DNA from: Squalus acanthias
Taxonomy: Eukaryota
NCBI GenBank assembly: GCA_030390025.1
Contig: CM059432.1
Location: forward strand, 22,508,001-22,572,000
Length of the DNA: 64,000 nucleotides
Reading direction: 5' to 3'
Shown here in pieces: positions 31,591 to 31,806 of this stretch. The stretch's first letter is position 1, and the number at the start of each line of letters is the position of its first letter. The notes under the pieces are model-generated. The model did not search any database. It saw only the letters and a program-made list of their open reading frames with translations, and had not been told where the DNA came from. The position numbers and the translations under genes were made by a program.

Positions 31591-31806
31591 AAAGTGAGAA
31601 GTCGCACAACACCAGGTTATAGTCCAACAGCTTTATTTGAAATCACAAGCTTTCGGAGCGCTGCTCCTTCGTCAGGTGAAGTGACCTGACGAAGGAGCAG
31701 CGCTCCGAAAGGTTGTGATTTCAAATAAAGCTGTTGGACTATAACCTGGTGTTGTGCGACTTCTCACTTTTGTCCACCCCAGTCCAACACCGGCATCTCC
31801 GCATCA
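31591..31806 (+). mobile_element. Fold-back Penelope-type pLTR mini-element with hammerhead motifs
   Basis: 87-bp arms (31591-31677 / 31684-31770, 1 mismatch), 6-nt loop and 36-nt tail; 12-bp TSD ttcctaatttca (31579-31590 / 31807-31818). Confidence 0.88.

What the first reader, a model, noticed from the sequence alone, without database searches (positions are those of the whole stretch)
31591..31806. Fold-back mini-retroelement carrying a minimal hammerhead ribozyme motif on each strand
Seen: a 216-bp insertion with a 12-bp TSD, 87-bp inverted arms and a 36-nt tail. The minus strand reads tcac-CTGACGA-aGGAGC-agc-GCTCC-GAAA-gc-TT-gtga: complete hammerhead core, stem I tcac/gtga, palindromic AAGCTT stem III and a CUU triplet. 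The plus arm carries the same motif with a substitution in stem III and a disrupted stem I. Established: Penelope-like element pLTRs contain minimal hammerheads thought to act as dimers, and Penelope copies often have inverted pLTRs with a short tail. Inference: this is a non-coding unit inserted by target-primed retrotransposition. Its transcript in either direction would contain a ribozyme motif and its own antisense, so self-cleavage would compete with a long dsRNA hairpin.
Basis: partly seen in the sequence, partly recalled or inferred. Interest (0 to 1): 0.72.

Follow-up and report, generated by a model that had tools for sequence, protein, structure and literature searches.

The report
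Fold-back stub of a Penelope retrotransposon
This 216-base hairpin insertion is one copy of an abundant repeat family, likely a dead-on-arrival end fragment of a Penelope-type jumping gene in the already described "inverted copy plus tail" layout, and its ribozyme motif is predicted to be locked shut by the hairpin, so it is real but mostly ordinary.

Summary
In detail: 87-bp arms (one mismatch), 36-nt tail, exact 12-bp duplication, minimal hammerhead on the minus strand. A second copy 6 kb away has a different 12-bp duplication and loop junction. In public runs the family is very abundant, has two defined 3' ends about 35 nt apart, and paralogues of the host repeat show the empty site. The plus arm's stem III change is private to this copy. 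A degenerate RT + GIY-YIG element in the same window carries a same-spaced hammerhead with compensatory stems. This is the published Penelope-like (PLE) pattern: inverted pLTR, tail, duplication, opposite-strand minimal hammerheads. No parent sharing this sequence was found. The 'ribozyme versus hairpin competition' is not supported: the antisense arm is always transcribed first and folding gives stem II a probability below 1e-14. My mechanism (inferred): both nicked target strands prime cDNA at the two internal start sites known from the anole PLE, copying only the RNA leader; inverted-arm-plus-tail joints in one run fit this. The scan has twice noted the same kind of element in other genomes.

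The parts
31579..31590 (+). Left target-site duplication (75% A+T); its last 2 nt also match the element (microhomology)
   Evidence: paralogous empty site with one copy of the 12-mer in 27 contigs of X5
31591..31684 (-). Tail-less inverted arm; the 6-nt loop is this arm's extra upstream sequence
   Evidence: copy 2 and loose ends before 31684 show the same upstream letters
31643..31679 (-). Intact minimal type I hammerhead motif: 4-bp stem I, CUGANGA, bulged A, 5-bp stem II, GAAA, loopless stem III, CUU triplet
   Evidence: activity untested
31685..31770 (+). Tail-bearing arm, starting at the base before the catalytic core; stem I 5' strand truncated, private C>G at 31712
31771..31806 (+). 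A+C-rich tail between the family's two 3' ends; predicted to pair with 31748-31754 of the arm
   Evidence: loose ends at 31771/31773 and 31807; pair probabilities about 0.8
31807..31818 (+). Right target-site duplication
25484..25727 (-). Second copy of the family (93% identical) with its own 12-bp duplication (25716-25727 and 25484-25495) and a longer loop; interrupts a reading frame that resumes on the other side
12797..14985 (-). Context, different family: 5'-truncated, frameshifted PLE (RT motifs, C-terminal GIY-YIG) with a same-spaced minimal hammerhead at 12900-12936; ends approximate
41374..41472 (+). Context: solo tail-less end of that second family with a damaged core

Best explanation
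The unit is a target-duplicated insertion of a high-copy repeat family, likely a dead-on-arrival cDNA copy of the hammerhead-bearing end (pLTR plus tail) of an endonuclease-positive Penelope-like retrotransposon, likely built by two priming events. Steps: (1, shown) an A+T-rich site is duplicated over 12 bp. (2, inferred from the anole PAc protein, which cuts and extends both strands and starts at two internal RNA sites) each nicked strand primes reverse transcription, one at the tail end (31806/7) and one at the arm end (31770-2), with 1-3 nt of microhomology. (3, inferred) both cDNAs run only to near the 5' end of the RNA, about 16 nt upstream of the hammerhead core, and are joined head to head, giving inverted arm + arm + tail. 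(4, predicted) any read-through RNA folds as an 87-bp hairpin, so the ribozyme is inert here; it is a passenger from the parent RNA and decays after insertion.
For: Two copies with different duplications and loop junctions. Both arms within each copy share a polymorphic base (31768: T/T in copy 1, A/A in copy 2; A is 23-26% of depth in X1, X5, X9), so each copy's arms come from one template type. Two 3' ends with unrelated flanks: X1 73+59 contigs at 31771/31773 and 150 at 31807; X5 41+36 and 127; flank agreement 0.36-0.38. Cut site to ends: 57-59 and 92-93 nt; PAc cuts at +26 and starts at +111-118, i.e. 85-92 nt (PMC11167929 main text). The window's own PLE shows the same two-end layout, 68-69 and about 107 nt. 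Hammerhead pairs between the two families: 8 of 11 with a change on both sides. Two X5 contigs join 31684 to 31768/31770 on opposite strands, which I read as inverted arm fused straight to tail, the classic twin-priming product. In 2 of 2 copies the tail-less arm is the longer one at the loop, which fold-back of a tail-primed cDNA would not give. Loose letters before 31684 have median length 14 in all three contig runs and end in the same letters as copy 2's long arm. In Drosophila Penelope the start site lies shortly upstream of the hammerhead (PMC2377424 passages; PMC4209133).
Against: No parent ORF linked to this pLTR was found (no genome held). Only two junctions were seen in full. The arm-tail joints rest on 2 contigs in one run and could be deletions of one arm. 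Both tail arms start within 1 nt of the same place, which a shared fold-back ancestor would also give. Shared arm variants could come from gene conversion. The covariation is in effect one family-versus-family contrast among 6 related rows. The laid runs are not shown to be the window's species, and 297 loose-end rows were not shown. No initiation site was measured.
Confidence: 0.68

Rival explanations
1. The whole fold-back is a non-autonomous master element (SINE-like hairpin RNA) that is transcribed and retrotransposed as a unit by a PLE protein.
For: Tail arms of both copies begin within 1 nt of the same base; copies are the same size class and 93% identical; no parent found; non-autonomous PLE derivatives are described (PMC8557442 passages; bioRxiv 10.64898/2026.07.22.740005 abstract).
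Against: Loop junctions differ between the 2 copies with no obvious slippage repeat; arms co-vary within copies; tail-less ends and arm-tail joints exist; the template would be a -176 kcal/mol hairpin.
Confidence: 0.14
2. Same PLE origin, but the inversion arises by self-priming on an antisense template, as proposed for rotifer Penelope elements.
For: Proposed for head-to-head junctions in PMC3846280 (Discussion passage); it also predicts that the loop reads as part of the tail-less arm, as seen.
Against: That proposal rests on palindromes at the junction; here junction complementarity is 1 nt in copy 1 and none evident in copy 2 (read by eye). It does not by itself explain the arm-tail joints or microhomology at both target junctions.
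Confidence: 0.13
3. A functional RNA switch in which self-cleavage competes with the hairpin, or a host-retained small-RNA source.
For: One intact motif per the descriptor; a guessed-RNA run holds family contigs (2,213 laid); a long hairpin could be a Dicer substrate (general knowledge).
Against: Stem II probability below 1e-14 in read-through RNA on both strands; trans double-hammerhead -19.1 kcal/mol against -21.6 for two monomers and -28.9 for the best cofold; 3 of 4 arms damaged, with three CpG-type transitions in copy 2; X9 is not shown to be RNA.
Confidence: 0.03
4. A MITE-type DNA transposon or a microRNA hairpin that carries a hammerhead-like string by chance.
For: Long inverted arms; Rfam microRNA models score the hairpin, all far below gathering score (94.7 against 230 at best).
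Against: Asymmetric tail, two alternative 3' ends, unrelated 12-bp duplications, and the same-spaced motif with compensatory stems at the 3' end of an RT + GIY-YIG element.
Confidence: 0.02

Closest known systems
Complex insertions of endonuclease-positive Penelope-like elements: inverted pLTR plus 30-40-bp tail with short TSD (PMC3846280, PMC8557442; passages read)
   Same: Head-to-head inverted copy, tail on one end only, target duplication, insertion into other repeats.
   Different: No ORF between the arms; TSD 12 bp against 8-10 bp in the rotifer examples; the 5' boundary looks fixed rather than random (indirect evidence).
Minimal hammerheads of metazoan PLE pLTRs (PMC4209133; parts 1-2 of 4 read)
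   Same: Short stem I, bulged nucleotide before stem II, G10.1-C11.1, palindromic loopless stem III; that paper already reports solo motifs and opposite-strand pairs about 100-700 bp apart.
   Different: Here the pair is only about 10 nt apart; cartilaginous fishes are not named in the parts read; activity untested.
Poseidon element PAc of Anolis carolinensis (PMC11167929; main text read, supplement figures not visible)
   Same: A+C-rich tail in a predicted stem-loop, two ends, 85-92 nt versus 92-93 nt from ribozyme cut to outer end, A+T-rich targets.
   Different: In PAc the ORF starts at stem II; here no open frame starts there and an ATG appears only just past the tail in run consensus letters. 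The main text does not discuss inverted copies.
Non-LTR retrozymes (bioRxiv 10.64898/2026.07.22.740005; part 1 of 5 and passages read)
   Same: Non-coding, type I hammerhead, PLE-related, reported in a chondrichthyan.
   Different: Retrozymes are defined by head-to-tail tandems; this unit is head to head and dispersed.

Membership tests
EN+ Penelope-like element insertion | Minimal hammerhead in the terminal repeat | tested here: met
EN+ Penelope-like element insertion | Optional 30-40-nt tail: two alternative 3' ends | tested here: met
   (ends at 31771/31773 and 31807)
EN+ Penelope-like element insertion | Inverted 5'-truncated copy at the 5' side | tested here: met
   (2 of 2 copies)
EN+ Penelope-like element insertion | Short target duplication at an A+T-rich site, absent from the empty site | tested here: met
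   (75% and 92% A+T against 55% for the window); paralogous empty site; orthologous empty site not seen
EN+ Penelope-like element insertion | Parent element with RT and GIY-YIG ORF sharing this pLTR | tested here: inconclusive
   0 matches (collections that may hold no such host DNA); no genome; the window's PLE is another family
Hammerhead ribozyme (active) | Conserved core, stems I-III geometry, NUH triplet | tested here: met
   minus-strand arm only; the family varies U/C at position 17, 4-31%
Hammerhead ribozyme (active) | Match to an Rfam hammerhead model | tested here: not met
Hammerhead ribozyme (active) | Self-cleavage | not testable with these tools
   folding predicts sequestration in read-through RNA
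Non-LTR retrozyme | Head-to-tail tandem of units each with a complete hammerhead | tested here: not met
   both window copies are single, head to head; two joints table 5c may be head-to-tail neighbours with spacers, strand not given
MITE / DNA transposon | Terminal inverted repeats at both ends and a fixed TSD | tested here: not met
   one end carries a tail; ends vary
Named Repbase/Dfam family | 80-80-80 match to a curated consensus | not testable with these tools
   no such library offered

The most novel reading that the evidence does not exclude
These stubs are a genomic record of how PLEs integrate: a dimeric PLE protein bound at the 5' leader of its own mRNA primes from both nicked strands at the two internal start sites and copies only the leader (start site to tail). 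That would explain in one mechanism the tail, the head-to-head inverted pLTR, the arm-plus-tail inversion and the huge excess of solo hammerheads over full-length PLEs, replacing the antisense self-priming proposal.
Probability: 0.4. Interest if true: 0.48.

Novelty: new member of a known kind. Interest (0 to 1): 0.22.

Why it matters
As an object it is one more copy of a described insertion pattern. Its use is as data: young, abundant, very short copies with clean junctions let the origin of inverted pLTRs (an open step of PLE transposition) be tested by counting junctions, and the twin-priming reading is directly testable with the purified anole PLE system. Abundant 87-bp hairpins could also be a large endogenous double-stranded RNA source, which was not tested.

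Tried and rejected
Whole genome: none held, so no genome-wide junction or TSD table. Exact-pattern scans for the parent: 0 loci in viral contigs and metagenome contigs. Rfam: no hammerhead; microRNA hits are generic hairpin scores. The window's PLE (12797-14985) as parent: rejected, best nucleotide match 17 nt at E 0.77; no duplication found around it beyond one 7-mer. PDB sequence search of its endonuclease piece: 0. Absence of CpG variants in the hammerhead core from the variant table was considered as evidence of selection and rejected: the table also omits differences seen between the two window copies (31690, 31801), so it is incomplete. Summed contig depth was not used as copy number. 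X21 gave 9 reads only; its 3-read loose end past the tail, containing an ATG, is too thin to call a parent ORF. Host flank ORF 30958-31395: no Pfam family, Atlas score 0.85 with low recognition, unidentified. PAc sequence file and supplement figures could not be read; the dimer-cleavage paper PMC5785218 is not held (title seen in a reference list only). Earlier scan notes by sequence and by place gave nothing.

Full report
Observation. The arms span 31589-31677 and 31684-31772 with one mismatch, and the 12-mer at 31579-31590 recurs exactly at 31807-31818. The minus strand carries a complete minimal hammerhead motif at 31679-31643. My descriptor found 3 such sites in the window against 0.05 per shuffled window (40 shuffles). 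Rfam does not recognise it as a hammerhead; I expect this for motifs without a closed stem III, but that is my reading, not a test.

It is a family, and an insertion. A second copy lies at 25496-25715 on the minus strand, 93% identical, with a different 12-bp duplication and a longer loop. It interrupts a reading frame that ends in ...ARNI on one side and resumes RNIKTDSK... on the other, which confirms that duplication. Of 21 listed public runs, 20 hold part of the stretch, from 9 studies. I laid 4 of them on the tail arm, tail and right flank: 15,632, 10,758 and 2,213 contigs in X1, X5 and X9, and 9 raw reads in X21. None is shown to be the window's own species. In X5, 27 contigs of the host repeat run from the right flank through a single copy of the 12-mer into letters matching the left flank: a paralogous empty site. 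The family has two 3' ends, 31771/31773 and 31807, each followed by unrelated flanks (19 loose-end rows shown, 297 not). The G at 31712 is private to this copy.

Link to Penelope-like elements. [quoted passage not shown] Pfam scores are below cut-off (GIY-YIG E 0.015, RVT_1 E 0.23), the Atlas returns GIY-YIG clusters at 0.96-0.97 (family on 12-22% of members), and the 7 homologues found include ray proteins at 59-63% identity, 3 of 7 with PF26215. From these I infer a cartilaginous-fish host. Its 3' end carries a hammerhead with the same spacing as ours. Across 6 aligned arms, 8 of 11 pairs show a change on both sides and 86% of cells pair, against 16-40% for slid controls; this is essentially one contrast between two families. 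That family also shows two ends, about 38 nt apart, judged from one long and one solo copy. It is not the parent of our unit, and no parent was found. Membership therefore rests on architecture, not on a linked ORF.

What is known. Inverted pLTR, optional 31-bp tail and 8-10-bp duplications are described in rotifer Penelope elements (PMC3846280, 11 passages) and called typical of PLEs (PMC8557442, 12 of 18 passages; PMC8969392 passages). Minimal hammerheads in pLTRs, mostly solo, sometimes as opposite-strand pairs, with no monomer cleavage and weak dimer cleavage, are in PMC4209133 (parts 1-2 of 4). The anole PAc protein cleaves and extends both strands, prefers A+T-rich DNA, starts reverse transcription at two internal sites that bound the tail, and does not need the ribozyme, which cleaves only with protein (PMC11167929 main text; its supplement figures and sequence file could not be seen, and may bear on the geometry comparison). 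In Drosophila Penelope an intron lies 46 bp downstream of the start site (PMC2377424 passages) and ends at helix I; PLE transcripts start in the pLTR (PMC6765202 passages).

Mechanism. Shown: staggered duplication, 1-3-nt overlaps between duplication and element at both ends of both copies, arms that share a polymorphic base within each copy but not between copies, and a loop that belongs to the tail-less arm in 2 of 2 copies. Inferred: the top-strand nick primes at the arm end and the bottom-strand nick at the tail end; the two cDNAs meet head to head. Two X5 contigs (depth 25 and 135) join 31684 to 31768 or 31770 on opposite strands, which I read as an inverted arm fused straight to the tail, the product expected when the tail-primed cDNA stops at the inner start site. 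The loose letters upstream of 31684 have median length 14 in X1 (47 contigs), X5 (36) and X9 (12) and match the end of copy 2's long arm, suggesting a fixed 5' boundary; consensus letters after 31807 begin GA in all three, which completes an ATG. I read the unit as the RNA leader from start site to ORF start. Against: two junctions only, possible deletions or gene conversion, both tail arms starting within 1 nt of each other (unexplained), no measured start site. Searches for this mechanism in print (listings only) showed no title or abstract proposing twin priming for PLEs, and one search found nothing on shark PLE hammerheads, but the library lacks most subscription papers and Repbase and Dfam were not searched.

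The ribozyme here. On both strands the antisense arm precedes the motif. Predicted stem II probability is below 1e-14 at each of 5 prefix lengths per strand, and forcing the hammerhead costs 54 kcal/mol. A minus-strand RNA starting in the loop gives only about 0.1 for stem II and 0.02 for stem I. There is one motif per strand, so a dimer would need two RNAs, and that fold is not favoured. Three of 4 arms are damaged. I conclude the motif is an inherited passenger. These are nearest-neighbour predictions that ignore tertiary contacts and protein.

Verdict. A real, young insertion of a PLE-type family in a described layout: new member of a known kind, interest 0.22. Two earlier notes of this scan on other genomes reach the same class; they are unchecked and are not counted as evidence. 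The part worth following is the twin-priming, leader-copy reading, which is inferred and testable.

Noticed in passing
window 12797-14985 (-): 5'-truncated, frameshifted PLE of a second family, with RT and GIY-YIG motifs and an intact-looking minimal hammerhead at 12900-12936; a solo tail-less end lies at 41374-41472 (+).
   Followed up: partly
window 31300-31950 (+): The host is itself a multi-copy repeat. The insertion sits at a pyrimidine-rich tract ending in AG before an acidic reading frame, with a GT about 31439: possibly the 3' splice site of a decayed spliced gene. Unidentified.
   Followed up: partly
window 25400-26200 (-): Copy 2 interrupts a LINE-like reading frame (CR1-like by my recall; no Pfam match).
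   Followed up: partly
run X1, loose end before 31702: 17 contigs (agreement 0.69) suggest a subfamily with a different stem II loop and G-U-type changes in stems I and II that would keep pairing.
   Followed up: no
runs X1 and X5, table 5c: Joints from the tail or arm end back to 31684 across 19-24 other letters, one present in both runs: possible adjacent or tandem copies.
   Followed up: no
window 25617-25665 (+): All 4 differences of copy 2's long arm fall in the hammerhead segment next to the loop, none in the distal 64 nt.
   Followed up: no
window 354-863, 32817-33380, 35942-37243, 53129-53497, 55040-55810: Five RVT_1 fragments of other retroelements (5 of 52 ORFs scanned); the window is dense in old repeats.
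   Followed up: no
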